DNA from: Pseudomonas sp.
GTDB taxonomy: Bacteria > Pseudomonadota > Gammaproteobacteria > Pseudomonadales > Pseudomonadaceae
Length of the DNA stretch: 64,000 nt
Direction of reading: 5' to 3'
Assembly: GCF_017744435.1 (NCBI RefSeq)
Contig: NZ_JAGIBG010000001.1
Location: forward strand, 163,556 to 227,555
Shown: positions 34,330-51,070 of the stretch, in pieces
Numbering within the stretch: position 1 is the stretch's first letter
Layout of the letters: the number at the start of each line of letters is the position of its first letter
Made by a program: the position numbers and the translations under genes
The notes under the pieces: generated by a model
What the model saw: only the letters and a program-made list of their open reading frames with translations
What the model was told of the DNA's origin: nothing
Databases searched by the model: none

Positions 34330-34341
34330 TCTGAAACAGCT

Positions 34342-34460
34342 GCGGCCGCGTTGCGGCCCTTCGCGGGCACGCCCGCTCCCACAAGGTACAGCGCAAGCCT
34401 TGGGCTTTATGCAATCCCTGTGGGAGCGGGCGTGCCCGCGAAGGGCTGCAAAGCAGCCCC
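34342..34460. repeat. REP doublet with flanking small hairpins
   Basis: GCCCTTCGCGGGCACGCCCGCTCCCACA plus an inverted copy ending GGGCTGCAAAGCAGCCCC. Confidence 0.88.
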
Positions 34461-34470
34461 TTCTTTAAAA

Positions 34471-35877
34471 TCAATCGTTAACGCAAATCGCCCGACCCGC
34501 CTTCACGGCAGCCTTGCCGCGCGTCGCCAGGCAGTAGTACAGCGGCACCGTCACCAGCAGGCCAAACAGCCACGACAAGTCAGCCCCTTCGACAATGTTC
34601 GAATACGGCCCCACATACAGCGACGTGTTGGCAAACGGCAACTGCACCAGGATCCCGCAGGCATAGGCAATGATCGCGTGGTGATTGAAGCGGCCATAGA
34701 TGCCGCCGTCGGCACGGAAGATCGACGCGATGTCGTACTGGCCCTTCTTGATCAGGTAGAAGTCGATCAGGTTGATCGATGCCCACGGCACCAGCACCAG
34801 CAGCAGCGCCAGGATCAGGCCGATGAACTGGCCGATGAAGCCGGCCGACGCATTCAGCGCCACCATCCCGCAGCCCACCAGGATCACCGAAGCCAGGATC
34901 ACCCGCACCTTGATGCTCGGCGTCCACTCGGCGACGAACGTCTGGATCGCGGTAACGATCGACAGCACCGCGCCATACAGGTTGAGGGCGTTGTGGCTGA
35001 TGATGTTGAGCAGGAACAGCACCATCAGGATCGGGCCCAGCCAGCCGGTGGCCTGCTTGACCGCATCCATCGCGTCGGTGCCATCCGGCACGCACAGCAC
35101 CGCGATCGTGCCGAAGCTGAAGCACAGGATGGTGCCCAGGGTGGCGCCGAAGTAGGTCGCCCAGAACGGCTTGGCGATGCCTACTTCACGCGGCAGGTAG
35201 CGCGAGTAGTCGGAGGTGTACGGCGAGAAGCTGATCTGCCAGATGATGCCCAGCGACACCGTGGCGATGAAGCCCGACAGGTTGAACGCGCCGCGGGTCA
35301 GGAAGTCGGCCGGCAGCTCCTGGACGAACATCATGATGAAGCCGGCCAGCAGTGCCGAACCCATCACCCAGGTACCGATGCGGTTGAGGATGTGGATGAA
35401 GCGGTAGCCGATCACGCCGATGGCCGTCGCACTCAGGGCGCCGATCACGATCGCGCCTGGCATCGGCACGCTCGGGGCGATGCCATGGATGGTCTTGCCC
35501 GCCAGGACGATGTTGGAGATGAAGAAGCCGACATAGATCAGCGCGGTGAAGAACACGATCAGCAAGGCGCCGTAACGGCCGAACTGGCCGCGGCTCTGGA
35601 CCATCTGCGGAATGCCCAGCTGCGGTCCCTGCGCAGAGGCCAGGGCGATGAACACGCCCCCGACGAGATGACCCAGCACGATTGCGATCAGCCCCCACAG
35701 CAGGTTCAGGTGGAACACCTGGACCACCATGGCGCCGGTGACGATAGGCAGTGGCGCGATGTTGGTACTGAACCAGAGGGTGAACAGGTCGCGCGCCTTC
35801 CCATGGCGCTCGGCAGGTGGAACGTAATCGACCGTGTGATTCTCGACAAACTGGTGTTGCGACGACGGTTGGGACAT
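34471..35877 (-). CDS. NCS1 purine/cytosine-permease-family transporter
   Basis: YVPPAERHG..LFTLWF, GIPQMVQSRGQFG, SDYSRYLP. Confidence 0.92.
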   Translation of the reverse strand: MSQPSSQHQFVENHTVDYVPPAERHGKARDLFTLWFSTNIAPLPIVTGAMVVQVFHLNLLWGLIAIVLGHLVGGVFIALASAQGPQLGIPQMVQSRGQFGRYGALLIVFFTALIYVGFFISNIVLAGKTIHGIAPSVPMPGAIVIGALSATAIGVIGYRFIHILNRIGTWVMGSALLAGFIMMFVQELPADFLTRGAFNLSGFIATVSLGIIWQISFSPYTSDYSRYLPREVGIAKPFWATYFGATLGTILCFSFGTIAVLCVPDGTDAMDAVKQATGWLGPILMVLFLLNIISHNALNLYGAVLSIVTAIQTFVAEWTPSIKVRVILASVILVGCGMVALNASAGFIGQFIGLILALLLVLVPWASINLIDFYLIKKGQYDIASIFRADGGIYGRFNHHAIIAYACGILVQLPFANTSLYVGPYSNIVEGADLSWLFGLLVTVPLYYCLATRGKAAVKAGRAICVND

Positions 35878-35950
35878 AGGATTCAGCTCGAAAGGTCGTT
35901 TTTATCTTTGTAAGGAAACCGCATCTAGGCGGCCTCTCAGCTGCGGACCA

Positions 35951-35966
35951 TATTATGGTATTCCAA
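35951..35966. promoter_or_regulatory. GntR(FadR)-type operator copy 1, near the permease promoter
   Basis: TATTATGGTATTCCAA, a variant of the motif at 36122 and 38063. Confidence 0.55.
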
Positions 35967-36109
35967 ACTTTTGACAACACTGATCCGTAGGAAAAAACGC
36001 CCGCTGATCTGCTCGCACAACCCCTGCGACAAACCGCCTCAGCACTCTATCCCACGGTTTACGTGGCCTTGCGCCGTTCATCGTGAAAAACCACGGCTGA
36101 AAATTCCAC

Positions 36110-36143
36110 TTGCAAAATAGGTATTACGGTATACCATCAGACA
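36110..36143 (+). promoter_or_regulatory. Promoter with GntR-type operator (copy 2)
   Basis: TTGCAA-N16-TACCAT; TATTACGGTATACCATCAGACA at 36122-36143. Confidence 0.7.
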
Positions 36144-36193
36144 CATCAACGATAAAAACCGCGGACCACCGCAGCCCTTTAGAGGTACACCAG

Positions 36194-36679
36194 ATGATCG
36201 ACGCAAGCATCTACAAGAACGTCCTGGGCTCCTTCCCGTCCGGCGTGACCGTCATCACCACCCTGGACGACGACGGCTCGGTCGTCGGCCTGACCGCCAG
36301 CGCCTTCTCCTCCCTGTCGATGGACCCGCCGCTGGTGCTGTTCTGCCCCAACTACACCTCCGACTCCTACCCGGTCCTGATCAAGAACAAGCGCTTCGCC
36401 ATTCACCTGCTCTCCGGTGGGCAGCAGGCCGAAGCCTACGCGTTCGCCAAGAAGGGCAAGGACAAGGCCGCCGGCATCGAGTGGACCCTGAGCGAACTGG
36501 GCAACCCGATCCTGGCCGGCGCCACCGCTGTCATCGAATGCGAACTGTGGCGCGAATATGAAGGTGGCGACCACGCCATCATGGTCGGCAAGGTGCACAA
36601 CCTGATCGTCCCCGAGGAAGCGCCTCGGCCGATGGTCTACTGCCGCGGCAAGATGGCCAGCCTGCCGGCCTTTGCCTGA
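36194..36679 (+). CDS. Flavin reductase (TgnA/HpaC-like)
   Basis: GSFPSGVTVITT, ASAFSSLSMDPPLVL, GGDHAIMVG. Confidence 0.92.
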   Translation: MIDASIYKNVLGSFPSGVTVITTLDDDGSVVGLTASAFSSLSMDPPLVLFCPNYTSDSYPVLIKNKRFAIHLLSGGQQAEAYAFAKKGKDKAAGIEWTLSELGNPILAGATAVIECELWREYEGGDHAIMVGKVHNLIVPEEAPRPMVYCRGKMASLPAFA

Positions 36680-36754
36680 AGCCTATTCTGAATCGAGACA
36701 CCTGGCGCCTGCGCAGCCTGGCGACAGACACTTTCAAGCGTTGAGGAAAGCCCC

Positions 36755-37795
36755 ATGAAATTTTCGTTGTTCGTGCACATGGAACGTTGGGATGAACAGG
36801 TCAGCCACCGCCAGCTGTTCGAAGACCTGACCGAACTGACCCTGATGGCCGAGCACGGCGGTTTCAGCACCGTGTGGATCGGCGAACACCACGCCATGGA
36901 ATACACCATCTCGCCAAGCCCGATGCCGCTGCTGGCCTACCTGGCCGCGCGCACCGAGAAGATCCGCCTGGGTGCCGGCACCATCATCGCGCCGTTCTGG
37001 AACCCGATCCGCGTTGCCGGCGAATGCGCCCTGCTCGACGTGATCAGCAACGGCCGCATGGAAGTGGGCCTGGCCCGTGGTGCCTACCAGTTCGAATTCG
37101 ACCGCATGGCCGGTGGCATGCCGGCCACCGACGGCGGCAAGGCCCTGCGCGAAATGGTCCCGGTGGTACGCAAGCTGTGGGAAGGCGACTACGCCCATGA
37201 CGGCGAAGTCTACAAGTTTCCCACCTCCACCAGCGTACCGAAGCCGTTCAACGCCACCCCGCCGATGTGGATCGCCGCCCGCGATCCGGACTCGCACAAC
37301 TTTGCCGTGGCCAACGGCTGCAACGTCATGGTCACCCCGCTGATGAAGGGCGACGAGGAAGTGCTGGACCTGAAGAACAAGTTCCAGGCCGCCCTCGACA
37401 ACAACCCGGACGTGCCACGCCCGCAACTGATGGTGCTGCGCCACACCCACGTGCACAGCCCGTCGGAGCCTGAAGGCTGGAAAATCGGCGCCCAGGCCAT
37501 CTCGCGCTTCTACCGCACCTTCGATGCCTGGTTCGGCAACAAGACCACCCCGGTCAACGGCTTCCTCGAGCCGAGCCCTGAGTCGAAGTTCGCCGAAGTG
37601 CCGGCGTTCCAGCTGGAGAACATCCGCAAGAACACCATGATCGGCACCCCGGAAGAGATCATCGCCCGGATCAAGTACTACCAGGAGCTCGGTGTCGACG
37701 AGTTCAGCTTCTGGTGCGACAACAGCCTGCCCCACGCCGAGAAGAAGAAGTCGCTCGAGCTGTTCATCAAGGAAGTGGTGCCGGCCTTCGCCTGA
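36755..37795 (+). CDS. Luciferase-like flavin monooxygenase (TgnB-like)
   Basis: MKFSLFVHMER, WIGEHH, GLARGAYQFE, WIAARDPDSHNFAV, VMVTPL; recalls A. baylyi TgnB. Confidence 0.85.
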   Translation: MKFSLFVHMERWDEQVSHRQLFEDLTELTLMAEHGGFSTVWIGEHHAMEYTISPSPMPLLAYLAARTEKIRLGAGTIIAPFWNPIRVAGECALLDVISNGRMEVGLARGAYQFEFDRMAGGMPATDGGKALREMVPVVRKLWEGDYAHDGEVYKFPTSTSVPKPFNATPPMWIAARDPDSHNFAVANGCNVMVTPLMKGDEEVLDLKNKFQAALDNNPDVPRPQLMVLRHTHVHSPSEPEGWKIGAQAISRFYRTFDAWFGNKTTPVNGFLEPSPESKFAEVPAFQLENIRKNTMIGTPEEIIARIKYYQELGVDEFSFWCDNSLPHAEKKKSLELFIKEVVPAFA

Positions 37796-37846
37796 ATTCC
37801 CATTGCCTGAGTCATTGCGGGACGCGCCCGCTCCCGTGGGCCCCCG

Positions 37847-37872
37847 AAGCCCGCGTGAGCGGGCTTTTTTTT
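37847..37872 (+). terminator. Intrinsic terminator after the monooxygenase
   Basis: AAGCCCGC-GTGA-GCGGGCTT followed by a T-run. Confidence 0.85.
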
Positions 37873-37882
37873 GAAACCTGCA

Positions 37883-37978
37883 CCGGCCTCTTCGCGGGCA
37901 CGCCCGCTCCCACAGGGTGGTGCAAACCTTAGAGGCTGCGCAGTCCCTGTGGGAGCGGGCGTGCCCGCGAAGAGGCCA
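37883..37978. repeat. REP doublet
   Basis: CCGGCCTCTTCGCGGGCACGCCCGCTCCCACAGG plus an inverted copy. Confidence 0.9.
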
Positions 37979-38050
37979 GTACAGACAGCACAAGATTCAA
38001 GGGATCAGCCCACCTTTCGTCCCCCCGCAAGAGAAATTTCAAGCCACCTC

Positions 38051-38084
38051 TTGCACAACAAATATTATGGTATACCATCAGACA
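38051..38084 (+). promoter_or_regulatory. Promoter with GntR-type operator (copy 3)
   Basis: TTGCAC-N16-TACCAT; TATTATGGTATACCATCAGACA containing the perfect palindrome ATGGTATACCAT. Confidence 0.72.
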
Positions 38085-38117
38085 ACAAGAGCTGATAACC
38101 CTCACCAGGAGCCACCC

Positions 38118-38714
38118 ATGAGTTTCGAAATCCGCAAGATCGTCACCTACTCCGAAGAGACCCGCATCGAAGGCGGCAAGGCCACCGACAAGCCGGTGAC
38201 CATGGTCGGCCTGGCCGTCGTGATCAAGAACCCATGGGCCGGTCGCGGTTTCGTTGAAGATCTGAAGCCGGAAATCCGCGCCAACTGCTCGGAGCTGGGT
38301 GCCCTGATGGTCGAGCGCCTGACCGCAGCCATCGGCGGTGCCGACAAGATCGAGGCCTACGGTAAGGCTGCAGTGGTCGGCGCCGATGGCGAAATCGAAC
38401 ACGCCTCGGCAGTGATCCACACCCTGCGCTTCGGCAACCACTACCGCGAAGCGGTGCAGGCCAAGAGCTACCTGAGCTTCACCAACAAGCGCGGCGGCCC
38501 GGGCACCTCGATCCAGATCCCGATGATGCAGAAGGACGACGAAGGCCTGCGTTCGCACTACATCACCCTGGAAATGCAGATCGAAGACGCCCCGCGCGCC
38601 GATGAAATCGTCGTGGTCCTGGGCGCTGCCGACGGCGGCCGCCTGCACCCGCGCATCGGCAACCGCTACATCGACCTGGAAGAACTGGCTGCCGAAAAAG
38701 CCAACGCTCAATAA
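38118..38714 (+). CDS. Amino-acid-synthesis-family (DUF1185-like) protein
   Basis: IRKIVTYSEE, AVVIKNPWAGR, YGKAAVVGADGEIEHA, PRADEIVV. Confidence 0.8.
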   Translation: MSFEIRKIVTYSEETRIEGGKATDKPVTMVGLAVVIKNPWAGRGFVEDLKPEIRANCSELGALMVERLTAAIGGADKIEAYGKAAVVGADGEIEHASAVIHTLRFGNHYREAVQAKSYLSFTNKRGGPGTSIQIPMMQKDDEGLRSHYITLEMQIEDAPRADEIVVVLGAADGGRLHPRIGNRYIDLEELAAEKANAQ

Positions 38715-38782
38715 CAACAACCAAGACGGGCCGGGGCGTGGCGTGCTTACCCGCCGCGCCCGACCTTCAAGGAGCGCCCTCC

Positions 38783-39616
38783 ATGATTCAGCCTGTCGCT
38801 GAACGTACACCTGCCGGCACCAGCTACCTGTCCGTCGGCCAGGGCCAACCCGTGGTACTGATCCACGGCGTGGGCCTGAACAAGGAAATGTGGGGCGGGC
38901 AGATCGTTGGCCTGGCCAATGACTACCGCGTCATCACCTACGACATGCTCGGCCACGGCCAGAGCCGCGTACCGGCTGCAGACACCCCACTGGAAGGCTA
39001 TGCCGACCAGCTCGCCGAACTGCTTGACCACCTGCAGCTTCAACAAGCCACCGTGATCGGCTTCTCCATGGGTGGCCTGGTCGCTCGTGCATTCGCCCTC
39101 AACTACCCGCAGCGCCTGGCTGCGCTGGTGGTACTCAACAGCGTGTTCAACCGCACCCCCGAGCAGAGTGCCGGCGTCATCGCCCGCGCCGCCCAGGCTG
39201 CGGAGCTCGGCCCCGACGCCAACGTCGACGCCGCCCTCGACCGCTGGTTCAGCCGTGAATACAAGGCTGCCAACCCGGCCCAGGTCGCTGCCATTCGCCA
39301 GGTGCTGGCGAACAACGACCCGCAGGGTTACCACACCACTTATGCGCTGTTCGCCACCCAGGACATGTACCGCGCCGGTGACCTGGGCAACATCCAGGTG
39401 CCGACGCTGATCGCCACCGGCGAACTCGACTCGGGCTCCACCCCGGCCATGACCCGCCAGCTCGCTGCCAGCATTCCTGGCGCGCAAAGCGTGGTCCTCG
39501 CCGAGCAACGGCATATGATGCCCGTGGAAGCACCGCGTGAAGTCAACAAGATGCTGCTGGACTTCCTCGCCCAAGCCCGCACCCTCACCGAATCCGCCAA
39601 GGGGATTGTTGCATGA
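38783..39616 (+). CDS. Alpha/beta hydrolase (TgnD-like)
   Basis: LIHGVG, GFSMGG nucleophile elbow, RHMMP. Confidence 0.88.
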   Translation: MIQPVAERTPAGTSYLSVGQGQPVVLIHGVGLNKEMWGGQIVGLANDYRVITYDMLGHGQSRVPAADTPLEGYADQLAELLDHLQLQQATVIGFSMGGLVARAFALNYPQRLAALVVLNSVFNRTPEQSAGVIARAAQAAELGPDANVDAALDRWFSREYKAANPAQVAAIRQVLANNDPQGYHTTYALFATQDMYRAGDLGNIQVPTLIATGELDSGSTPAMTRQLAASIPGAQSVVLAEQRHMMPVEAPREVNKMLLDFLAQARTLTESAKGIVA

Positions 39617-41094
39617 CCCTCGTTCGTTTCCAGATGTGCATCGACGGCCAATGGCTCGATGCCCAGAGCGGCAAGACCTTCGACAGCCTCAACCCGGCCA
39701 CCGCCCAGGCCTGGGCGCAACTGCCCGACGCCGACGAAGCCGATGTCGAGCTGGCCGTACAGGCCGCCCAGCGTGCCTTCGACAGCAAGGCATGGCGCAG
39801 CATCACCGCCACCGCGCGCGGCAAGCTGTTGCGTCGCCTGGGTGACCTGATCGCCGAGAACAAGGAGCACCTGGCCCAGCTGGAAAGCCGTGACAACGGC
39901 AAGCTGATCCGCGAAACCCGCGGCCAGGTCGGCTACCTGCCGGAGTTCTTCCACTACACCGCGGGCCTGGCCGACAAGCTCGAAGGCGGCACCCTGCCCC
40001 TCGACAAGCCAGACCTGTTCGCCTACACCGTGCACGAGCCGATCGGCGTGGTCGCCGCGATCATCCCGTGGAACAGCCCGCTGTACCTGACCGCGATCAA
40101 GCTGGCGCCGGCCCTGGCTGCCGGCAACACCATCGTGATCAAGCCCTCCGAGCACGCCTCGGCGACCATCCTCGAACTGGCTCGCCTGGCCCTGGAAGCC
40201 GGCTTCCCGGCGGGCGTGGTCAACGTGGTCACTGGCTACGGCCCAAGCACCGGCGCGGCGCTGACCCGCCACCCGCTGGTGCGCAAGATCGCCTTCACCG
40301 GCGGCGCCGCCACTGCCCGCCACGTGGTGCGCAGCAGTGCCGAGAACTTCGCCAAGCTGTCGCTGGAACTGGGCGGCAAGTCGCCAAACATCATCTTCGC
40401 CGACGCCGACCTGGACAGCGCCATCAACGGCGCCGTGGCCGGCATCTATGCCGCCTCCGGGCAGAGCTGCGTGGCCGGCTCGCGCCTGCTGGTGCAGGAC
40501 GAGATCTTCGACGAATTTGTCGAGCGCCTGATCGCCCGTGCCAAGCGCATCCGCATCGGCAACCCGCAGGACGACGCCAGCGAAATGGGCCCGATGGCCA
40601 CCGCACAACAGCTGGCCGTAGTCGAAGGCCTGGTCGCTGCGGCCAAGGCCGAAGGCGCCAAGCTGCACATGGGCGGCAAGCGTGCCGAGGTCGAGGGTGA
40701 TGGCTGGTTCTACGAGCCGACCCTGTTCGAGTGCGACAGCAACTCGATGACCATCATGCAGGAAGAGGTGTTCGGCCCGGTTGCTGCGGTGATCCGCTTC
40801 AAGACCGAAGAAGAGGCCCTGGAAATCGCCAACGACTCGCAGTTCGGCCTTGCTGCCGGCATCTGGACCCGCGACCTGGGCCGTGCCCACCGCCTGGCCC
40901 GCGACGTGCGTTCGGGGATCATCTGGGTCAACACCTACCGCGCAGTGTCGGCCATGGCGCCGATCGGCGGCTTCAAGAACAGCGGCTACGGCCGTGAGAG
41001 CGGCATCGATTCGGTGCTGGCCTATACCGAGCTGAAGACCGTGTGGATCAACCTGTCCACCGCGCCGATGCCCGACCCGTTTGTGATGCGCTAA
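39613..41094 (+). CDS. Aldehyde dehydrogenase (TgnC-like)
   Basis: AFTGG, LELGGKSP, GQSCVAGS, EEVFGPV; C-terminal DPFVMR as remembered for TgnC. Confidence 0.92.
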   Translation: MTLVRFQMCIDGQWLDAQSGKTFDSLNPATAQAWAQLPDADEADVELAVQAAQRAFDSKAWRSITATARGKLLRRLGDLIAENKEHLAQLESRDNGKLIRETRGQVGYLPEFFHYTAGLADKLEGGTLPLDKPDLFAYTVHEPIGVVAAIIPWNSPLYLTAIKLAPALAAGNTIVIKPSEHASATILELARLALEAGFPAGVVNVVTGYGPSTGAALTRHPLVRKIAFTGGAATARHVVRSSAENFAKLSLELGGKSPNIIFADADLDSAINGAVAGIYAASGQSCVAGSRLLVQDEIFDEFVERLIARAKRIRIGNPQDDASEMGPMATAQQLAVVEGLVAAAKAEGAKLHMGGKRAEVEGDGWFYEPTLFECDSNSMTIMQEEVFGPVAAVIRFKTEEEALEIANDSQFGLAAGIWTRDLGRAHRLARDVRSGIIWVNTYRAVSAMAPIGGFKNSGYGRESGIDSVLAYTELKTVWINLSTAPMPDPFVMR

Positions 41095-41107
41095 GAGGTA
41101 GCACGAG

Positions 41108-41593
41108 ATGATCGAACCTGGCATCTACAAAGACGTGATGGGCTCGTTCCCGTCCGGCGTCACCGTGGTCACCACCCTGGACGCCGATGGCGGCATCGTC
41201 GGCATCACCGCCAGCGCGTTCAGCGCGCTGTCGATCGAGCCGGCGCTGGTGCTGTTCTGCCCCAACTACGCATCGGACACCTACCCGATCCTGCGTGACA
41301 GCAAGCAGTTCGCCATTCACCTACTGTCCGCCGACCAGACCGCCGAGGCCTATGCCTTCGCCGGCAAGGGCAAGGACAAAGCCAAGGGCGTCGAGTGGCA
41401 GTTGAGCGAGCTGGGCAACCCGCTGCTGACCAAGGCCACGGCGATCATCGAGTGCGAACTGTGGCGCGAATACGACGGCGGTGACCACGCGATCATCGTC
41501 GGCGCGGTGAAGAACCTGGTGCTGCCGGCCGAGCCGGTGACGCCGATGGTCTACCACAAGGGCAAGCTGGGTGCCCTGCCGCCGCTTGGCTGA
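41108..41593 (+). CDS. Flavin reductase, paralog of 36194-36679
   Basis: GSFPSGVTVVTT, LFCPNY, GGDHAIIVG; also 161 aa. Confidence 0.92.
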   Translation: MIEPGIYKDVMGSFPSGVTVVTTLDADGGIVGITASAFSALSIEPALVLFCPNYASDTYPILRDSKQFAIHLLSADQTAEAYAFAGKGKDKAKGVEWQLSELGNPLLTKATAIIECELWREYDGGDHAIIVGAVKNLVLPAEPVTPMVYHKGKLGALPPLG

Positions 41594-41616
41594 TCGCCCT
41601 TGAAGTCGGCGCTGGT

Positions 41617-41707
41617 GCCTTCGCGGGCAAGCCCGCTCCCACAGGGACCGCACAGTTCTCAAGAGCTCTGCAATACCTGTGGGAGCGGGCTTGCCCGCGA
41701 AGAAGCC
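41617..41707. repeat. REP doublet
   Basis: CCTTCGCGGGCAAGCCCGCTCCCACAGG plus an inverted copy. Confidence 0.9.
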
Positions 41708-41790
41708 ACCACCGATGTCCCTGTTTTTCAGGGGCCGCACTAATCGTCTCACCCTCGGTTGCGGCCCCTTTTTATTCCGGAGTACTGCGC

Positions 41791-42180
41791 ATGAGCAACG
41801 AAAAGTACGAGAAAGGCCTGCAGATCCGCACCCAGGTGCTGGGCGAGGAGTACGTCAACCGCTCGATCCAGAACGCCGACGACTTCACCCAGCCGCTGCA
41901 GGAGCTGGTCACCGAGTACTGCTGGGGCCACGTCTGGGGCCGCGAAGGCCTCTCGCTGAAAGAGCGCAGCATGATAAACTTGGCCATGATTTCCGCGCTC
42001 AACCGGCCCCACGAGCTCAAGCTGCACATTCGCGGCGCATTGCGTAATGGCCTGAGCCGTGAACAGATTCGCGAGATCCTGCTCCAGGTCGGCATTTATT
42101 GCGGCGTGCCCGCGGCGGTGGACAGTTTCCGCCTGGCCCGCGAGGCGTTCGCCGAAGCCGATGCGGAGTCAACCCGTTAA
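41791..42180 (+). CDS. Carboxymuconolactone decarboxylase-family protein (PcaC-like)
   Basis: YCWGHVWGREGLS..RSMI, ELKLHIRGALRNG, QVGIYCGVPA. Confidence 0.9.
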   Translation: MSNEKYEKGLQIRTQVLGEEYVNRSIQNADDFTQPLQELVTEYCWGHVWGREGLSLKERSMINLAMISALNRPHELKLHIRGALRNGLSREQIREILLQVGIYCGVPAAVDSFRLAREAFAEADAESTR

Positions 42181-42268
42181 CAACGGGCTGTTCGAACCAC
42201 TGCAAGGAGTGCCTCGGTTCAGGGGGCTCCGTGATGTTGGCGCAACAGCCTCATAAAGAGCGCACCTG

Positions 42269-43033
42269 ATGAAACGCCAGCCACTCGACGACAGCTTCAA
42301 GGTCAACCGCAACCCCGTTACCCTGCGCGAAATCGTGCTCGACAAGCTGCGCGGCGCGATCATGAACTTCCACCTGCTGCCCGGCGACCGCCTGGTCGAG
42401 CGCGACCTCTGCGACCGCCTGGGGGTCAGCCGCACCTCGGTGCGTGAGGCCCTGCGCCACCTGGAGTCCGAAGGCCTGGTGGAATTCGCCGACGCCAAGG
42501 GCCCGCGCGTGGCCATCATCACCCTGGAAGACGCCCGCGATATCTACGAGCTGCGTTGCGTGCTCGAAGGCCTGATCGTGCAGTTGTTCACCCTCAACGC
42601 CAAGGCCAAGGACATCCGTGCCCTGGAGCGCGCACTCGAGGTCAACCGCGAAGCCCTCGAAGAAGGCGAGCTGCAACAGGTGCTGGACTCGGTGCAAGGT
42701 TTCTACGACGTGCTCCTGGAAGGCTCTGGCAACCAGGTCGCCGCCCAACAGCTGCGCCAGCTGCAGGCACGCATCAGCTACCTGCGCGCCACCTCGGTGT
42801 CGCAGGAAAACCGCCGCGGCGCCAGCAACCGTGAAATGGAAAAGATCGTCGAGGCAATCAAGGGCGGCGACCCGCTGGTGGCGCACCAGGCCTCGGTCGA
42901 CCACGTTCGCGCCGCTGCCAAGGTGGCCCTGGACTACCTGCGCCAGAAGCAGGACGACAACAGCAAGGTGCGCGACATGGTCGAGCCCCTGGCCCTGAAA
43001 GAGCCCCGCATAGAACCCCGCATAGGCCGCTGA
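42269..43033 (+). CDS. GntR-family (FadR/FCD) regulator
   Basis: PGDRLVERDLCDRLGVSRTSVREAL; FCD domain. Confidence 0.93.
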   Translation: MKRQPLDDSFKVNRNPVTLREIVLDKLRGAIMNFHLLPGDRLVERDLCDRLGVSRTSVREALRHLESEGLVEFADAKGPRVAIITLEDARDIYELRCVLEGLIVQLFTLNAKAKDIRALERALEVNREALEEGELQQVLDSVQGFYDVLLEGSGNQVAAQQLRQLQARISYLRATSVSQENRRGASNREMEKIVEAIKGGDPLVAHQASVDHVRAAAKVALDYLRQKQDDNSKVRDMVEPLALKEPRIEPRIGR

Positions 43034-43034
43034 C

Positions 43035-43598
43035 ATGCCCAACGCCCCGCGCTACTGCCCGCACTGCACCACGGAACTGGCCCGGGGCGTTCCCACAGGC
43101 GACACCCACGAACGCCTGCACTGCACCGGCTGCGGTTATATCCACTACATCAATCCGAAGATCATCGCCGGCTGCATCATCGAGCGCGACGGCAAGTACC
43201 TGCTGTGCCAGCGCGCCATCCCGCCGCGCCCCGGCACCTGGACCTTGCCGGCCGGGTTCATGGAAGCCGGCGAGACCACCGAGCAGGCGGCCTTGCGCGA
43301 GGTCTGGGAAGAAAGCGGCGTACGTGCCGATATCGTCTCGCCCTATTCGATCTTCAGCGTGCCGAAAATCAGCGAGGTGTACATCATCTTCCGCGCCATC
43401 GCCACCGAAGAGACCGGGCAGTACGGGCCGGAAACGTTGGCGTACAAGTTCTTCGAACCTGACGAGATTCCCTGGGACGAGATCTATTACCCGGCGATCC
43501 GGCAGATTCTCGAGCGCTACATCCTCGAACGCCAGGCCGGTGTGTATGGCATCTACATGGGCAATGACGACACCGGCAAGGTGCATTTCATGCGCTGA
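43035..43598 (+). CDS. NUDIX hydrolase with N-terminal zinc ribbon
   Basis: CPHC..CTGC; GFMEAGETTEQAALREVWEE Nudix box. Confidence 0.93.
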   Translation: MPNAPRYCPHCTTELARGVPTGDTHERLHCTGCGYIHYINPKIIAGCIIERDGKYLLCQRAIPPRPGTWTLPAGFMEAGETTEQAALREVWEESGVRADIVSPYSIFSVPKISEVYIIFRAIATEETGQYGPETLAYKFFEPDEIPWDEIYYPAIRQILERYILERQAGVYGIYMGNDDTGKVHFMR

Positions 43599-45838: not shown

Positions 45839-45878
45839 AGCCATAACCGCCACATTTGCGCCGAGCTTCAGCTGTCGT

Positions 45879-46511
45879 TCAACGCCGCCCTTCAGCCAGC
45901 ATGCGCACGGCCAGCCCCGCCAGCACCGTGCCCATCAGCCAGCGCTGAACCTGCTGCCACAGCGGGCGACCGGCGAGGAACACGGCGATGGAGCCCGCCA
46001 TGACCGCAATCAGCGCATTGACCGAAACGCTGATGGCGATCTGCGTCGAACCCAGTACCAGCGATTGCAGCAGCACGCTGCCATGCCCCGGCTCGATGAA
46101 CTGCGGCATCAGCGACAGGTACATGACGGCAATCTTGGGGTTGAGCAAACTGGTGGCAAACCCCATGGTAAACAGCCGCCGCGGGCTGTCGGCAGGCAGG
46201 TCCCGCACCTGGAAGGGCGAGCGGCCACCGGGGCGCAGCGCCTGCCAGGCCAGGTACAACAGGTACAACGCACCACCGATGCGCAGTGCGTCATAGGCAA
46301 AGGGCACAGCCATTACCAGTGCGGTGATGCCCAATGCAGCGCAGAACATGTAGATGACAAAGCCCAGCGCCACACCGCCAAGGGAAATCAACCCAGCCTT
46401 GCGGCCCTGGCAGATCGACCGGGAAATCAGGTAGATCATGTTCGGCCCCGGGGTCAGGACCATGCCCAGGCAGATCAGGGCGAAGGTAAGCAGTTGGGTA
46501 GTATCGGGCAT
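45879..46511 (-). CDS. LysE/RhtB-family translocator
   Basis: LTPGPNMIY, LLNPKIAV. Confidence 0.92.
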   Translation of the reverse strand: MPDTTQLLTFALICLGMVLTPGPNMIYLISRSICQGRKAGLISLGGVALGFVIYMFCAALGITALVMAVPFAYDALRIGGALYLLYLAWQALRPGGRSPFQVRDLPADSPRRLFTMGFATSLLNPKIAVMYLSLMPQFIEPGHGSVLLQSLVLGSTQIAISVSVNALIAVMAGSIAVFLAGRPLWQQVQRWLMGTVLAGLAVRMLAEGRR

Positions 46512-46577
46512 GGGGCACATCCTGGTGGTGCGCTGGAATGCGGCGAGTGTATCCGAAGCTGTTGGTCACCGCTGAAG

Positions 46578-47192: not shown

Positions 47193-47303
47193 TTGAATCT
47201 TCCTTATCTACTGCCTTGGGATGAGGAAAGATTACGGATTCCGCCCGGGGATTTTCTTTCGTATATTCCCTCTCATCATTCACTTACTGGAAGATTCTTC
47301 CCC

Positions 47304-47995: not shown

Positions 47996-48170
47996 ACCGT
48001 CCACCGCTTAAGCTTTTGTCAGCCTTAGGTTTTTTAAGGTTTATGGGCACATATTTACTAATTTCTCGTTATCCCCGCGCCCCGCATCATCGCTCCAACA
48101 AGAACGCGTCGCCCTTCGCCGGCACGCACCCGGGCAGCACCCGATGCCCCACCTTGCCTTGGAGTCAGTC

Positions 48171-49583
48171 ATGACCAGTGCAGCCAATTCGGCACCCCTG
48201 ATAGAAAAACACACGATCGGCTATGTGCCGCCGGAAGACCGCCATGGAAAGGTGAGGGATCTGTTTACACTGTGGTTCGGCGGCAATATCGCGCCGCTGC
48301 CCATCGTCACCGGCGCGCTGGGCGTGCAGCTGTTTCACCTGAACCTGATATGGGGCATTGTCGCCATCCTCGTTGGCCACCTGGTCGGCGGCGTGCTGAT
48401 GGCGCTGCACTCGGCCCAGGGCCCGCAGATGGGCATCCCGCAGATGATCCAGAGCCGCGCCCAGTTCGGCACCCTCGGCGCGTTGCTGGTGGTGGTGATC
48501 GCCGGGGTGATGTACATCGGCTTCTTCGCCTCCAACATCGTGCTGGCCGGCAAGTCGCTACATGGCGTGGTCGAGGCCGTTCCGGTGCCGGTGGGCATCG
48601 TCATCGGTGCGCTGGGTTCAGGCATCATCGGCATCATCGGCTACCGCTTCATCCACGTGCTCAACCGCATCGGCACCTGGGTGCTGGGCGTCGGCATCGT
48701 GGTCGGCTTCGGCTACATCTTCAGCCATGTGCAAAGTGACGACTTCCTCACCCGCGGCGGCTTCAACCTGGCCGGCTGGCTGGCCACCGTGTCGCTGGCG
48801 GCGCTGTGGCAGATCGCCTTTGCCCCGTACGTGTCGGATTACTCGCGCTACCTGCCGGCCGACGTGAAGGTCAGCTCGACCTTCTGGACCACCTACCTGG
48901 GTTCGGCCCTGGGTTCGAGCCTGTCGTTCGTCTTCGGCGCCGTGGCGGTGCTGGCGATCCCGGCCGGCATGGACACCATGGACGCGGTCAAGCTGGCCAC
49001 CGGCACCCTCGGCCCGCTCATGCTGGTGCTGTTCCTGCTCAGCGTGATCAGCCACAACGCCCTCAACCTGTATGGCGCGGTGCTGTCGATCATCACCCTG
49101 GTGCAGACCTTCGCCTACCGCTGGATCCCGACCGCCAAGAGCCGTGCAGTGCTGTCGCTGCTCGTGCTGTCGGCCTGCTGCGTGGTGGCGGTGTTCGCCT
49201 CGGCGGACTTCATCGGCCACTTCGTCGACATGGTGCTGGTGCTGCTGGTAGTGCTGGTGCCATGGACGGCGATCAACCTGATCGACTTCTACGCAATCCA
49301 CAAGGGCGACTACGACATCCAGTCGATCTTCCAGGTCGATGGCGGCATCTACGGTCGTTACAACCCGCAGGCGCTGATTGCCTATGCGGTGGGTATCGTG
49401 GTGCAGATCCCGTTCATGAACACGCCGCTGTACGTCGGGCCGATCTCCGAGCACATCAACGGGGCCGACCTGTCGTGGCTGGTTGGCCTGGCAGTGACCT
49501 CGCCGCTGTACTGGTGGCTGGCCAGCCGTGACAGTGCCTATCGTCGTCGGCAGACCAGTGCCAAGCTGGCCATGGGGCACTGA
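48171..49583 (+). CDS. NCS1 purine/cytosine-permease-family transporter, paralog of 34471-35877
   Basis: YVPPEDRHG..LFTLWF, NIAPLPIVTGA, SDYSRYLP, ISHNALNLYGAVLSI shared with the first permease. Confidence 0.92.
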   Translation: MTSAANSAPLIEKHTIGYVPPEDRHGKVRDLFTLWFGGNIAPLPIVTGALGVQLFHLNLIWGIVAILVGHLVGGVLMALHSAQGPQMGIPQMIQSRAQFGTLGALLVVVIAGVMYIGFFASNIVLAGKSLHGVVEAVPVPVGIVIGALGSGIIGIIGYRFIHVLNRIGTWVLGVGIVVGFGYIFSHVQSDDFLTRGGFNLAGWLATVSLAALWQIAFAPYVSDYSRYLPADVKVSSTFWTTYLGSALGSSLSFVFGAVAVLAIPAGMDTMDAVKLATGTLGPLMLVLFLLSVISHNALNLYGAVLSIITLVQTFAYRWIPTAKSRAVLSLLVLSACCVVAVFASADFIGHFVDMVLVLLVVLVPWTAINLIDFYAIHKGDYDIQSIFQVDGGIYGRYNPQALIAYAVGIVVQIPFMNTPLYVGPISEHINGADLSWLVGLAVTSPLYWWLASRDSAYRRRQTSAKLAMGH

Positions 49584-49729: not shown

Positions 49730-51055
49730 TCAGTACTGGGCCTGGCCCGGTACCCAGGCGGTGCCTGCCAGCGGCACCCGGGCCATGGCGGCGGCCTCGA
49801 CGGTCAGCGCCACCAGGTCCTCGGGGTCGAGGTTGTGCAGGTGTGATTTGCCGCAGGCGCGGGCCATGGTCTGCGCCTCCAGCACCAGCACCCGCAGGTA
49901 GTTGGCCAGGCGCCGGCCCGCCTCTTCCGGGTTCAGGCGCCTGGCCAGTTCCGGGTCCTGGGTGGTGATGCCGGCCGGGTCGCGGCCGTTTTGCCAGTCG
50001 TCGTAGAAGCCGGCAGCCGAGCCGATCGTCTTCAGCTCGCTGTCCAGTCGCGGGTGGTTGTCGCCCAGGGCGATCAGCGCCGCCGTGCCGATGGCCACCG
50101 CGTCGGCACCCAGGGCCATGGCCTTGGCCACGTCGGCACCGTTGCGGATGCCACCGGAGACAATCAGCTGCACCTTGCGGTGCATGCCCATTTCCTGCAG
50201 CGCCTGCACAGCCTGTGGAATGGCCGGCAGAATCGGGATGCCAACGTGTTCGATGAACACTTCCTGGGTGGCTGCCGTGCCGCCCTGCATGCCGTCGAGC
50301 ACGATCACGTCGGCACCGGCCTTCACCGCCAGCTTGACGTCGTAGTACGGGCGGCTGGCGCCGATCTTCACGTAGATCGGTTTCTCCCAGTCAGTGATCT
50401 CGCGGATCTCGGCAATCTTGATCGCCAGGTCGTCCGGGCCGGTCCAGTCCGGGTGTCGGCAGGCGCTGCGTTGGTCGACGCCGATCGGCAGGGTGCGCAT
50501 GCCGGCGACACGCTCGGTGACCTTCATGCCCAGCAGCATGCCGCCACCGCCGGGCTTGGCACCCTGGCCGAGGACGATCTCGATGGCGTCGGCCTTGCGC
50601 AGGTCATCGGGGTTCATGCCGTAGCGCGACGGCAGGTACTGGTAGACCAGGTGCTGCGACTGGCCGCGCTCTTCCGGGGTCATGCCGCCGTCGCCGGTGG
50701 TGGTGCTGGTGCCGGCGATGGTCGCGCCACGGCCCAGGGCCTCCTTGGCATTGGCCGACAACGCGCCGAAGCTCATGCCGGCAATGGTCACCGGGATCTT
50801 CAGGTGGATCGGCTGCTTGGCGAAGCGGTTGCCCAACACCACGTCGGTGCCGCATTTTTCGCGGTAGCCTTCCAGCGGGTAGCGCGACACGCTGGCGCCC
50901 AGCAGCAGCAGGTCGTCGAAGTGCGGCACGCGGCGCTTGGTGCCACCGCCGCGGATATCGTAGATGCCGGTTTCAGCGGCGCGCTGGATTTCCTGGATGG
51001 TCAGGCGATCGAAGGTGGCCGACTCACGCAGTACCGGGGGGAATTGTTCGCTCAT
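49730..51055 (-). CDS. glxD: FMN-binding glutamate-synthase-family protein (GlxD / MgsC-like)
   Basis: AGMSFGALS, TGDGG, GQGAKPGGGG, IVSGGIRNG. Confidence 0.88.
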   Translation of the reverse strand: MSEQFPPVLRESATFDRLTIQEIQRAAETGIYDIRGGGTKRRVPHFDDLLLLGASVSRYPLEGYREKCGTDVVLGNRFAKQPIHLKIPVTIAGMSFGALSANAKEALGRGATIAGTSTTTGDGGMTPEERGQSQHLVYQYLPSRYGMNPDDLRKADAIEIVLGQGAKPGGGGMLLGMKVTERVAGMRTLPIGVDQRSACRHPDWTGPDDLAIKIAEIREITDWEKPIYVKIGASRPYYDVKLAVKAGADVIVLDGMQGGTAATQEVFIEHVGIPILPAIPQAVQALQEMGMHRKVQLIVSGGIRNGADVAKAMALGADAVAIGTAALIALGDNHPRLDSELKTIGSAAGFYDDWQNGRDPAGITTQDPELARRLNPEEAGRRLANYLRVLVLEAQTMARACGKSHLHNLDPEDLVALTVEAAAMARVPLAGTAWVPGQAQY

Positions 51056-51070
51056 GGGAATGCTCCTGGA

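What the first reader, a model, noticed from the sequence alone, without database searches (positions are those of the whole stretch)
34471..43598. tgn-like N-methylpyridinium ring-cleavage cluster with a non-canonical transporter and accessory genes
The LLM monooxygenase, flavin reductase, ALDH ending DPFVMR, alpha/beta hydrolase, DUF1185 protein and GntR mirror the Acinetobacter baylyi trigonelline pathway (TgnAB ring opening, TgnC oxidation, TgnD hydrolysis to succinic semialdehyde, formate, methylamine and CO2). Similarity is judged from remembered sequences and looks moderate, so the substrate may be trigonelline or a relative such as homarine (N-methylpicolinate) or another N-substituted pyridine. 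The differences are an NCS1 importer, two reductases, a PcaC-like protein, a Nudix enzyme and no local succinic-semialdehyde dehydrogenase.
Basis: partly seen in the sequence, partly recalled or inferred. Interest (0 to 1): 0.68.

Follow-up and report, generated by a model that had tools for sequence, protein, structure and literature searches.

The report
Pseudomonas-type trigonelline breakdown gene cluster
This is an intact, widespread Pseudomonas version of the known bacterial pathway that opens and degrades trigonelline (N-methylnicotinate, a common plant compound); most of the parts flagged as unusual also occur in the reference Acinetobacter cluster, so it is largely ordinary.

Summary
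The ten genes are real and intact at 34471-43598: a divergent NCS1 permease, then flavin reductase, LLM oxygenase, DUF1185, alpha/beta hydrolase, ALDH, second flavin reductase, PcaC-like CMD, GntR/FCD and Nudix.

I located the Acinetobacter baylyi ADP1 tgn locus (TgnB = ACIAD2543) and compared directly. Identities were TgnB 48%, TgnC 52%, TgnD 35%, TgnF 55%, TgnA 39% and TgnR 37%. The ADP1 proteins other than TgnA hit this cluster best, and the TgnD reverse check agreed.

Two supposed differences are canonical. The ADP1 locus also holds an NCS1 permease (55%) and the CMD protein (77%). The Nudix gene matches the degenerate C-terminal domain fused to TgnA.

The real differences are:
- the split reductase;
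- a duplicated reductase (70% identical);
- a different gene order in three transcription units;
- SSADH encoded elsewhere;
- an oxygenase in a well-supported sister clade (Pseudomonas, Halomonadaceae, Actinobacteria).

An operator-like motif (ATATTATGGT) is shared with Acinetobacter, Marinomonas and a Halomonadaceae (Vreelandella) locus. Methylamine-assimilation genes (gmaS-mgsABC) lie 6 kb away. The two P. syringae-group genomes tested carry only this type, and kiwifruit P. syringae strains in one study all grew on trigonelline.

Homarine now has a different known operon. Verdict: very probably trigonelline catabolism, a new member of a known kind, of low to moderate interest.

The parts
34471..35877 (-). 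NCS1-family permease, counterpart of the permease inside the A. baylyi tgn locus (presumed TgnP); probable trigonelline importer
   Evidence: PF02133, 160 bits. It is 55% identical over 450 aa to the NCS1 gene that follows tgnC in A. baylyi and is the best hit of that protein in this genome.
35947..35959 (.). Operator-like palindrome ACCATATTATGGT in the divergent NCS1|FR1 promoter region; overlaps the -10 hexamer of a sigma-70-like promoter for the permease
   Evidence: It is conserved letter for letter upstream of FR1 in the P. putida-group loci and in several more distant Pseudomonas loci. The same ATATTATGGT core lies in the tgnR|tgnF intergenic region of A. baylyi.
36194..36679 (+). Flavin reductase FR1 (161 aa from ATG 36194; longest ORF starts at TTG 36110), counterpart of the N-terminal domain of TgnA
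   Evidence: PF01613, 152 bits. It is 39% identical to TgnA residues 14-143. A ribosome-binding site precedes ATG 36194.
36755..37795 (+). Luciferase-like (LLM) flavin-dependent oxygenase, TgnB homologue of the Pseudomonas/actinobacterial sister clade; probable pyridinium ring-opening enzyme
   Evidence: PF00296. It is 48% identical over its full length to A. baylyi TgnB (ACIAD2543, P0252). It is the only close homologue in the genome. JGI names relatives that are 75-79% identical 'trigonelline monooxygenase, oxygenase component'.
37846..37867 (+). Intrinsic-terminator-like hairpin with a T-run, followed by a REP element; separates the FR1-LLM unit from the next unit
   Evidence: 9 pairs, 6 G-C, T-run; sequence shown.
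38062..38071 (+). Second operator half-site ATATTATGGT, 47 bp upstream of the DUF1185 start
   Evidence: three matches in 64 kb against 0.01 expected, all in this cluster's two promoter regions.
38118..38714 (+). DUF1185/AA_synth protein (198 aa from ATG 38118; longest ORF from GTG 37917), TgnF homologue
   Evidence: PF06684, 240 bits. It is 55% identical to the A. baylyi protein. TgnF stimulates TgnE-dependent SSA oxidation (PMC7913881, citing Perchat 2018).
38783..39616 (+). Alpha/beta-fold hydrolase (277 aa from ATG 38783), TgnD homologue
   Evidence: PF00561. It is below the PcaD cut-off (182.7 against 255.85 bits). It is 35% identical to TgnD and a reciprocal best hit in both directions. 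The GFSMG nucleophile motif is present.
39613..41094 (+). Aldehyde dehydrogenase, TgnC homologue
   Evidence: PF00171, 584 bits. It is 52% identical to TgnC over 493 aa and is that protein's best hit in the genome. The shared C-terminal DPF[VI]MR tail is absent from the SSADH.
41108..41593 (+). Second flavin reductase FR2, a paralogue of FR1
   Evidence: PF01613. It is 70% identical to FR1. Both copies are present across Pseudomonas loci. The Vreelandella locus has only one.
41791..42180 (+). CMD-family (PcaC-like) protein, orthologue of the CMD gene at the end of the A. baylyi tgn locus; role unassigned
   Evidence: PF02627. TIGR02425 scores 156.1 against a cut-off of 155.7. It is 77% identical to the A. 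baylyi protein. It also occurs in the Marinomonas, Vreelandella, Agrobacterium pAt and Mesorhizobium clusters.
42269..43033 (+). GntR/FCD transcription regulator, TgnR homologue; probable repressor acting at the ATATTATGGT sites
   Evidence: PF00392 plus PF07729. It is 37% identical to the A. baylyi regulator and is that protein's only hit in the genome at E <= 1e-10.
43035..43598 (+). Zn-ribbon Nudix hydrolase with an intact Nudix box; stand-alone homologue of the degenerate C-terminal domain of TgnA-type reductases
   Evidence: PF00293 plus PF14803. BLASTP against the S. meliloti pSymA reductase C-terminus gives E 1e-11, and against A. baylyi TgnA residues 173-302 gives E 8e-7. The closest solved structure is 3CNG, of unassigned function. 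It is conserved in the Pseudomonas and Vreelandella loci and in one unnamed Pseudomonadales genome; the Arthrobacter cluster also has an annotated NUDIX gene.
48144..49583 (+). Second NCS1 permease (associated, not part of the core cluster)
   Evidence: PF02133. It is 62% identical to the first permease and 50% identical to the A. baylyi permease. In four relatives it lies next after the AsnC-type regulator gene that follows Nudix, or directly after Nudix, with no sensor-kinase gene between.
49730..54078 (-). gmaS-mgsA-mgsB-mgsC (N-methylglutamate route of methylamine assimilation); associated downstream module that can consume the methylamine released from trigonelline
   Evidence: TIGR03105 scores 676 bits against a cut-off of 469.6; a GATase, an FwdC-like GXGXG protein and a glutamate-synthase-like protein follow. 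The module is physically linked to the LLM gene in many Pseudomonas loci. The function is assigned from established knowledge of the NMG pathway.

Best explanation
This is the Pseudomonas-type version of the trigonelline (N-methylnicotinate) catabolic system tgn.

Inferred mechanism, by homology to the pathway reconstituted in A. baylyi ADP1:
1. The NCS1 permease imports trigonelline.
2. FR1 (and its paralogue FR2) reduce flavin with NADH and pass it to the LLM oxygenase, which opens the pyridinium ring without prior hydroxylation.
3. The ALDH oxidises the cyclic hemiacetal product to the N-methylformamido-methylene succinate.
4. The alpha/beta hydrolase splits that product into succinate semialdehyde, methylamine, formate and CO2.
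5. Succinate semialdehyde is oxidised by an SSADH encoded elsewhere (contigs C27 or C7), helped by the DUF1185 protein.
6. Methylamine is assimilated by gmaS-mgsABC, 6 kb downstream, and by an N-methylglutamate dehydrogenase on contig C4.

The GntR/FCD protein probably represses at least two promoter regions through ATATTATGGT operators until the substrate or an intermediate binds.

The CMD protein and the Nudix protein are conserved parts of the system whose roles are not known.

What is shown here: gene content, homology, synteny, operator conservation and phylogenetic placement. What is inferred: every catalytic step and the substrate.
For: - Eight cluster proteins have a counterpart in the A. 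baylyi ADP1 locus whose oxygenase is ACIAD2543/TgnB. For the seven ADP1 proteins other than TgnA, the cluster gene is the best hit in this genome; TgnA's best hit lies on contig C73, narrowly ahead of FR1 (110 against 107 bits). The least similar enzyme, the hydrolase, is also a best hit in the reverse direction.
- The ADP1 locus itself contains the NCS1 permease and the CMD gene.
- The Nudix protein is homologous to the TgnA C-terminal domain.
- The TgnC-specific C-terminal DPFVMR tail is shared.
- The operator core ATATTATGGT occurs three times in 64 kb (0.01 expected), only in this cluster's promoter regions. It also occurs in the regulator-operon intergenic regions of A. baylyi, A. baumannii, Marinomonas and Vreelandella.
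- Methylamine-assimilation genes lie next to the cluster here and in many other Pseudomonas loci. N-methylglutamate-dehydrogenase/sarcosine-oxidase-like genes lie next to tgn in A. baylyi.
- Nine named Pseudomonas genomes, including P. avellanae and P. cichorii, carry only this type of TgnB homologue. All 53 P. syringae-group kiwifruit strains of one study grew on trigonelline as sole carbon source (PMC10890144).
- No genome among two samples of 401 carried both this type and the canonical type. This fits functional equivalence.
- JGI already labels 75-79% identical relatives as trigonelline monooxygenase.
Against: - The oxygenase is only 48% identical to TgnB. It falls in a separate, fully supported clade (100/100) rather than inside the clade that holds the characterised Acinetobacter enzyme and the S. 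meliloti pSymA homologue.
- The hydrolase is only 35% identical to TgnD.
- I found no experiment on any member of this clade in the searchable literature.
- NCBI does not transfer the TgnB name to the Pseudomonas proteins, although it does so within Acinetobacter.
- The link to P. syringae growth is a correlation across different strains.
- The primary paper (Perchat et al. 2018) could not be read here. Pathway chemistry therefore rests on my knowledge of it and on citing papers.
Confidence: 0.75

Rival explanations
1. The cluster degrades a different N-alkylated pyridinium or related N-heterocyclic carboxylate, using the same ring-opening chemistry. Candidates include N-methylnicotinamide, another pyridine betaine, or a plant alkaloid fragment. 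On this view the Pseudomonas/actinobacterial clade is a paralogous specificity class rather than an isofunctional orthologue.
For: - The oxygenase sits in a sister clade at 48% identity, and the hydrolase is 35% identical.
- The wider family has diversified. A third clade sits on Agrobacterium pAt and Mesorhizobium plasmids with different regulators and ProX-type or amino-acid ABC transporters.
- One sampled genome carries homologues at 52% and 44% identity to the window's oxygenase, which I read as canonical type plus third type; P. putida QH1 carries this type plus a second homologue 40% identical to TgnB. Specificity can therefore differ within the family.
- Two related NCS1 permeases lie nearby.
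Against: - The full canonical gene complement is present, the operator motif is shared, and this type and the canonical type never occurred together in the samples.
- The two P. syringae-group genomes tested have no other candidate, and strains of that group in one study all grew on trigonelline (PMC10890144).
- The linkage to methylamine genes still demands an N-methyl substrate.
Confidence: 0.17
2. The cluster degrades homarine (N-methylpicolinate).
For: Homarine is an isomer of trigonelline.
Against: - Homarine catabolism was assigned genetically to homABCDER in Cobetia and Ruegeria. Its proteins are described as FAD-binding HomA, HomB, peptidase-like HomC and ALDH-like HomD, with N-methylglutamate and glutamate as products (PMC13236597). 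That enzyme set differs from the one here.
- Steric arguments against TgnAB acting on homarine are given in PMC8269262.
- These are soil and plant Pseudomonas, whereas homarine is a marine metabolite.
Confidence: 0.03
3. The genes are a protocatechuate/beta-ketoadipate-type module (PcaC plus PcaD) with unrelated neighbours.
For: The CMD protein just passes the PcaC equivalog cut-off (156.1 against 155.7 bits). The hydrolase's best NCBIfam hit is PcaD.
Against: - The hydrolase is well below the PcaD cut-off (182.7 against 255.85 bits).
- Both proteins have their best A. baylyi counterparts inside the tgn locus, not at pca.
- No pcaB, pcaG, pcaH, pcaI, pcaJ or pcaF genes are adjacent.
- Other CMD homologues exist elsewhere in the genome.
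Confidence: 0.02

Closest known systems
tgn trigonelline degradation cluster of Acinetobacter baylyi ADP1 (order in the locus: tgnR | DUF1185-hydrolase-reductase-TgnB(ACIAD2543)-ALDH-NCS1-unknown-SSADH-CMD; Perchat et al. 2018, PNAS 115:E4358)
   Same: - Both have a two-component reductase/LLM oxygenase, a TgnC-type ALDH with the DPFVMR tail, a TgnD-type hydrolase, DUF1185, a GntR/FCD regulator, an NCS1 permease and a CMD protein.
- Both share the ATATTATGGT operator core.
- Both have a methylamine/N-methylglutamate module nearby.
   Different: - Protein identities are only 35-55%, except CMD at 77%.
- The oxygenase is in a sister clade.
- TgnA (310 aa: reductase plus a degenerate Nudix-like domain) is replaced by 161-aa reductases plus a separate Zn-ribbon Nudix with an intact catalytic box.
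- The reductase is duplicated.
- Gene order is FR1-LLM | DUF1185-hydrolase-ALDH-FR2 | CMD-GntR-Nudix instead of one F-D-A-B-C operon.
- There is no SSADH in the cluster, and no homologue of the 388-aa unknown gene of ADP1.
Tgn-type operon on Sinorhizobium meliloti pSymA (genetically defined trc trigonelline catabolism region, from my knowledge)
   Same: Both have DUF1185, hydrolase, reductase, LLM, ALDH and GntR. The LLM is 50% identical and the ALDH 56% identical.
   Different: - S. meliloti uses an ABC transporter.
- It has a NIPSNAP protein and no CMD.
- Its reductase is the fused type.
- It has a local SSADH.
homABCDER homarine catabolic operon (Cobetia sp. OBi1, Ruegeria pomeroyi DSS-3; PMC13236597)
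   Same: Both catabolise an N-methylpyridine carboxylate. Both include an ALDH-like enzyme, are proposed to use a two-protein ring-opening pair, and are coupled to N-methyl amine metabolism.
   Different: The enzyme families are different as described (FAD-binding HomA, HomB, peptidase-like HomC). The products are N-methylglutamate and glutamate rather than succinate semialdehyde and methylamine.

Membership tests
tgn trigonelline catabolic cluster (A. baylyi ADP1 type) | Two-component oxygenase: a flavin reductase plus an LLM oxygenase homologous to TgnA/TgnB | tested here: met
   The LLM is 48% identical over its full length to ACIAD2543 and is that protein's best hit in this genome. FR1 is 39% identical to the reductase domain of TgnA.
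tgn trigonelline catabolic cluster (A. baylyi ADP1 type) | Oxygenase falls inside the clade of the characterised TgnB | tested here: not met
   Maximum-likelihood tree of 33 sequences. The window's protein lies in a separate clade with 100/100 support, with Pseudomonas and Actinobacteria (Nitrincola joins this side at weaker support, 86/93; the Vreelandella type branches next to it). TgnB groups with the S. meliloti, Marinomonas and Roseobacter sequences, also with 100/100 support. The root is unreliable because the outgroup branch is very long.
tgn trigonelline catabolic cluster (A. baylyi ADP1 type) | TgnC-type aldehyde dehydrogenase | tested here: met
   52% identity over 493 aa, the best hit of TgnC in this genome, and a shared C-terminal DPFVMR tail.
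tgn trigonelline catabolic cluster (A. baylyi ADP1 type) | TgnD-type alpha/beta hydrolase | tested here: met
   35% identity, with reciprocal best hits in both genomes. The catalytic G-x-S-x-G motif is present.
tgn trigonelline catabolic cluster (A. baylyi ADP1 type) | DUF1185 (TgnF) helper protein | tested here: met
   PF06684 at 240 bits; 55% identity to the A. baylyi protein.
tgn trigonelline catabolic cluster (A. baylyi ADP1 type) | GntR/FCD regulator with a conserved operator | tested here: met
   37% identity, and the only hit of TgnR in this genome at E <= 1e-10. The ATATTATGGT core occurs in the promoter regions here and in the tgnR|tgnF intergenic region of A. baylyi. Binding itself was not tested.
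tgn trigonelline catabolic cluster (A. baylyi ADP1 type) | NCS1 permease and CMD protein within the locus | tested here: met
   55% and 77% identity to the A. baylyi genes in the same locus.
tgn trigonelline catabolic cluster (A. baylyi ADP1 type) | SSADH (TgnE) encoded in the cluster | tested here: not met
   The only ALDH in the cluster is the TgnC type. TgnE's best hits are on contigs C27 (63%) and C7 (58%).
tgn trigonelline catabolic cluster (A. baylyi ADP1 type) | Fused TgnA architecture (reductase plus a C-terminal Nudix-like domain in one protein of about 310 aa) | tested here: not met
   The reductases here are 161 aa. The homologous Nudix domain is a separate gene with a Zn ribbon and an intact Nudix box.
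tgn trigonelline catabolic cluster (A. baylyi ADP1 type) | Turnover of trigonelline and growth on it | not testable with these tools
   There is only a correlation. P. syringae-group strains grow on trigonelline (PMC10890144), and the P. syringae-group genomes tested carry only this cluster type.
homABCDER homarine operon | FAD-binding HomA, HomB, peptidase-like HomC and ALDH-like HomD | tested here: not met
   Pfam content here is LLM, Flavin_Reduct, AA_synth and alpha/beta hydrolase. There is no FAD-binding HomA-like protein and no peptidase. The comparison is against the paper's description, not against Hom sequences.
PcaC/PcaD of the beta-ketoadipate pathway | Scores above the equivalog cut-offs, in a pca gene context | tested here: not met
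   CMD scores 156.1 against 155.7 (borderline). The hydrolase scores 182.7 against 255.85 (fails). No pca neighbours are present.

The most novel reading that the evidence does not exclude
The Pseudomonas/actinobacterial lineage may preserve an unfused, catalytically competent form of two parts that the published six-protein pathway does not explain.

- The Zn-ribbon Nudix enzyme, whose dead copy is fused to TgnA elsewhere, may have a real catalytic role for the two-component oxygenase. One example would be cleaving FAD or an NAD-type dinucleotide to supply FMN or manage the reductase's cofactor. In an Arthrobacter plasmid cluster of the same clade the Nudix gene sits next to a riboflavin kinase gene.
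- The CMD protein is the most conserved protein of the whole system (77% between Pseudomonas and Acinetobacter). It may be an unrecognised core enzyme, for example catalysing the decarboxylation or an isomerisation currently credited to TgnD or to spontaneous chemistry.

Alternatively, this clade may have a substrate other than trigonelline.
Probability: 0.2. Interest if true: 0.5.

Novelty: new member of a known kind. Interest (0 to 1): 0.27.

Why it matters
Trigonelline is abundant in legumes, seeds, root exudates and algae, and growth on it is a classical diagnostic trait of plant-associated pseudomonads.

This work ties that trait to a concrete, very widespread Pseudomonas cluster. At least 584 species-level genomes encode a relative of the oxygenase. 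That gives a testable gene-to-phenotype assignment for rhizosphere and phyllosphere strains, and corrects generic annotations such as 'LLM class oxidoreductase' and '4-carboxymuconolactone decarboxylase'.

The comparison also shows that three proteins left out of the published reconstitution are conserved parts of the system across distant lineages: the CMD protein, the Nudix (or Nudix-like) domain and the NCS1 permease. That is a modest but concrete lead for completing the pathway. None of this changes the known chemistry.

Tried and rejected
- The primary paper (Perchat 2018, PMC5948990) is not held. Pathway chemistry is therefore taken from my knowledge of it and from citing papers (PMC13236597, PMC8269262, PMC7913881).
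- I first guessed that a low-GC hit of the order-wide search was Acinetobacter. It was Marinomonas sp. THO17, and that cost one protein search.
- I reached Acinetobacter through the 16S probe target TAGAGTATGGGAGAGGAT, followed by a genus-wide search and an exact-sequence look-up.
- Literature searches for experiments on Pseudomonas tgn genes, RB-TnSeq on trigonelline, Biotype-100 data and ACIAD locus tags found nothing usable.
- Pfam does not recognise the C-terminal domain of TgnA as Nudix. The homology shows only in pairwise BLASTP.
- The tree's outgroup (the genome's own 30% paralogue) is too distant to root the family, so I make no claim about which clade is ancestral.
- I considered and rejected two readings: a PcaC/PcaD module and a homarine operon (see the rival explanations).
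- I did not run structure prediction. No TgnB structure or mapped substrate pocket exists to compare with.

Full report
**Observation.**
- An NCS1 permease lies on the minus strand.
- On the plus strand follow a flavin reductase (FR1), a luciferase-like monooxygenase (LLM), a DUF1185/AA_synth protein, an alpha/beta hydrolase, an aldehyde dehydrogenase, a second flavin reductase (FR2), a CMD/PcaC-like protein, a GntR/FCD regulator and a Zn-ribbon Nudix hydrolase.
- The ALDH does end in DPFVMR.
- Three longest-ORF starts are probably too early. Ribosome-binding sites and the Pfam and homologue alignments point to ATG 36194 for FR1, ATG 38118 for DUF1185 and ATG 38783 for the hydrolase.
- P. putida-type REP elements and a strong terminator-like hairpin (37846-37867) separate FR1-LLM from DUF1185-hydrolase-ALDH-FR2. 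A REP pair and a second hairpin precede CMD-GntR-Nudix.

**Whose genome.** The LLM is 100% identical to that of Pseudomonas sp. NPDC089422 and P. vlassakiae RW4S2. It is 96-98% identical in P. monteilii, P. mosselii, P. capeferrum WCS358, P. fulva, P. entomophila and P. taiwanensis, and 88% identical in P. cichorii, P. avellanae and P. brassicacearum. The window is therefore from a P. putida-group strain. At least 584 species-level genomes encode a relative.

**Finding the reference.**
- The primary tgn paper is not held, so I located the reference locus myself.
- A tblastn search of plasmid records turned up an Acinetobacter baumannii record with a 48% identical LLM.
- A 16S probe pattern gave an Acinetobacter handle.
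- A genus-wide search found the gene in 32 of 247 Acinetobacter species.
- An exact-sequence look-up identified one of them as CAG69308.1 = ACIAD2543, named 'flavin-dependent trigonelline monooxygenase, oxygenase component' of A. baylyi.
- The 20-kb locus (L050) reads: GntR, then divergently DUF1185, hydrolase, a 310-aa reductase, TgnB, ALDH, an NCS1 permease, a 388-aa protein with no Pfam match, SSADH and a CMD protein. Sarcosine-oxidase/N-methylglutamate-dehydrogenase-like genes lie on the other side.

**Direct comparison.** Window proteins against the A. baylyi locus gave these identities:

| Window protein | Identity to A. baylyi counterpart |
|---|---|
| LLM | 48% |
| ALDH | 52% |
| Hydrolase | 35% |
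| DUF1185 | 55% |
| FR1 | 39% |
| GntR | 37% |
| NCS1 | 55% |
| CMD | 77% |

- In the other direction, seven of the eight A. baylyi proteins compared hit this cluster best in the window's genome. TgnA's best hit is a reductase on contig C73, narrowly ahead of FR1 (110 against 107 bits). The genome holds no second close TgnB homologue.
- The least similar enzyme, the hydrolase, finds TgnD as its best hit in the A. baylyi genome.
- The Nudix protein aligns with the C-terminal 130-150 residues of the long TgnA-type reductases (E 1e-11 for S. meliloti pSymA, 8e-7 for A. baylyi). There the Nudix box is degenerate. Here it is intact (GFMEAGE...REVWEESGV).
- The real differences are a split and duplicated reductase (FR1 and FR2 are 70% identical), a different gene order, and no SSADH in the cluster. 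The best TgnE homologues lie on contigs C27 and C7.

**Family structure.** A maximum-likelihood tree of 33 oxygenases shows three well-supported groups.
- The window's group holds Pseudomonas and Actinobacteria at 75-88% identity. Nitrincola (75%) joins this side at weaker support, and the Vreelandella type (66%) branches next to it.
- The canonical group holds Acinetobacter TgnB, S. meliloti pSymA, Marinomonas/Vibrio and Roseobacter sequences.
- A third group lies on Agrobacterium pAt and Mesorhizobium plasmids and in a few Pseudomonadales. It has other regulators and ProX-type, amino-acid ABC or BCCT transporters.

The window's oxygenase is therefore not inside the characterised clade. This is the main reason for caution about the substrate. 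The outgroup was too distant to root the tree.

**Evidence that the function is nevertheless the same.**
1. The whole gene complement is shared, including the unexplained CMD protein and the Nudix-like part.
2. The half-site ATATTATGGT occurs three times in the 64-kb window against 0.01 expected.
   - Two occurrences form the palindrome ACCATATTATGGT at 35947-35959. It overlaps the -10 hexamer of a promoter-like site for the permease.
   - The third lies 47 bp upstream of the DUF1185 start.
   - The palindrome is conserved letter for letter across the P. putida-group loci and several more distant Pseudomonas species.
   - The same core lies in the regulator-operon intergenic regions of A. baylyi, A. 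baumannii, Marinomonas and Vreelandella.
3. A gmaS-mgsABC methylamine-assimilation unit lies at 49730-54078. In many other Pseudomonas loci it directly follows the LLM gene. In A. baylyi and Marinomonas the N-methylglutamate-dehydrogenase-like genes adjoin tgn. All of this fits a substrate that releases methylamine.
4. Nine named Pseudomonas genomes, including P. avellanae BPIC 631 and P. cichorii, have only this type of TgnB homologue. All 53 P. syringae-group strains of one study grew on trigonelline as sole carbon source (PMC10890144).
5. Among 401 Pseudomonadales and 401 Pseudomonadota genomes sampled, no genome carried both this type and the canonical type. One sampled genome carried homologues at 52% and 44% identity, which I read as canonical plus third type.
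6. JGI already names 75-79% identical relatives 'trigonelline monooxygenase, oxygenase component'.

**Homarine.** Homarine catabolism was assigned in 2026 to homABCDER. That enzyme set is described quite differently and its products are N-methylglutamate and glutamate (PMC13236597). Members of the same group had earlier argued that TgnAB is unlikely to act on homarine (PMC8269262).

**Mechanism (inferred).**
1. The NCS1 permease takes up trigonelline.
2. FR1 or FR2 with the LLM opens the ring.
3. The ALDH oxidises the product.
4. The hydrolase releases succinate semialdehyde, methylamine, formate and CO2.
5. SSADH acts from elsewhere in the genome, with help from the DUF1185 protein. TgnF stimulates TgnE according to PMC7913881, citing Perchat 2018.
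6. Methylamine passes to the N-methylglutamate route.
7. The GntR/FCD protein represses at the shared operators.

The roles of CMD and Nudix are unknown. An Arthrobacter plasmid cluster of the same clade places a Nudix gene beside a riboflavin kinase and replaces CMD with a tautomerase-family gene. This hints at flavin supply for the first and an isomerisation or decarboxylation aid for the second. Both ideas are speculation.

**Earlier notes of this scan.** Several notes describe tgn-like clusters in other genomes. One covers a Pseudomonas copy and another the 'dead Nudix-like tail' of TgnA-type reductases. They agree with what I found independently. I do not count them as evidence.

**Verdict.** This is very probably the Pseudomonas-type trigonelline catabolic cluster (confidence 0.75). 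There is a residual chance (about 0.2) that the clade acts on a related N-methylated heterocycle. It is a new member of a known kind: widespread, already half-annotated by one pipeline, and of low to moderate interest. The conserved but unassigned CMD and Nudix components are the only real leads.

Noticed in passing
window 32704-34329: A four-helix-bundle methyl-accepting chemotaxis protein sits directly upstream of the NCS1 permease. It keeps that position in most P. putida-group loci but not in other Pseudomonas groups. Whether it senses trigonelline is unknown.
   Followed up: partly
window 43673-47756: A hybrid PAS-GAF histidine kinase, a LysE-type exporter ORF on the opposite strand (45879-46520; a 376-aa ORF without a Pfam match overlaps it on the plus strand) and an AsnC regulator separate the cluster from the second NCS1 permease and gmaS-mgsABC. 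In several relatives (L052, L055, L074, L077, L078) the kinase is missing and the modules are adjacent. This looks like an insertion into a former super-cluster.
   Followed up: partly
protein hits; L133 (Arthrobacter dokdonellae plasmid pDCT5): The oxygenase is 75-79% identical between Pseudomonas and Streptomyces, Nocardia, Mycolicibacterium and Arthrobacter. That is closer than to the Vreelandella (Halomonadaceae) protein (66%), which suggests transfer between phyla. The Arthrobacter copy is on a mobilizable plasmid and adds a riboflavin kinase, a tautomerase-family gene, two DUF1185 genes and both a long reductase and a separate Nudix.
   Followed up: partly
L131 (Mesorhizobium ciceri pMc1284), L132 (Agrobacterium fabrum pAt), L015 (unnamed Pseudomonadales genome G325): A third, uncharacterised clade of tgn-like clusters has the order reductase-ALDH-LLM-hydrolase-CMD, with or without NIPSNAP and DUF1185. 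It has large HTH or LysR regulators and ProX-type, amino-acid ABC or BCCT transporters. It probably acts on a different betaine.
   Followed up: partly
L050 5307-6473 (A. baylyi ADP1 tgn locus): A 388-aa gene between the NCS1 permease and the SSADH of the reference tgn locus has no Pfam match and no homologue in the window's genome.
   Followed up: no
L052, L097, L112 (genome contigs records): Records titled Pantoea sp. Ap-967, 'Enterobacterales bacterium' and Leclercia tamurae Ew19 (a 7.1-Mb 'chromosome') carry Pseudomonas-type loci whose oxygenase is 88-99% identical to the window's; two of them keep the full P. putida-group gene order. These are likely mislabelled or contaminated assemblies.
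   Followed up: no
L018 (NZ_CP064203.1 in the plasmid collection): A 3.97-Mb record labelled 'Acinetobacter baumannii plasmid unnamed1' is evidently a chromosome. It carries a complete canonical tgn cluster.
   Followed up: no
window 34330-34470, 37880-37916, 41594-41720, 47757-47900, 49584-49729, 54200-54290: P. putida-type REP elements (…CGCGGGCACGCCCGCTCCCACAGG…), often as inverted pairs, fill most intergenic gaps around and inside the cluster.
   Followed up: no
window 57525-60321: A nicotinate phosphoribosyltransferase gene (59122-60321) lies about 14 kb from the cluster. I found no evidence of a functional link to trigonelline.
   Followed up: no
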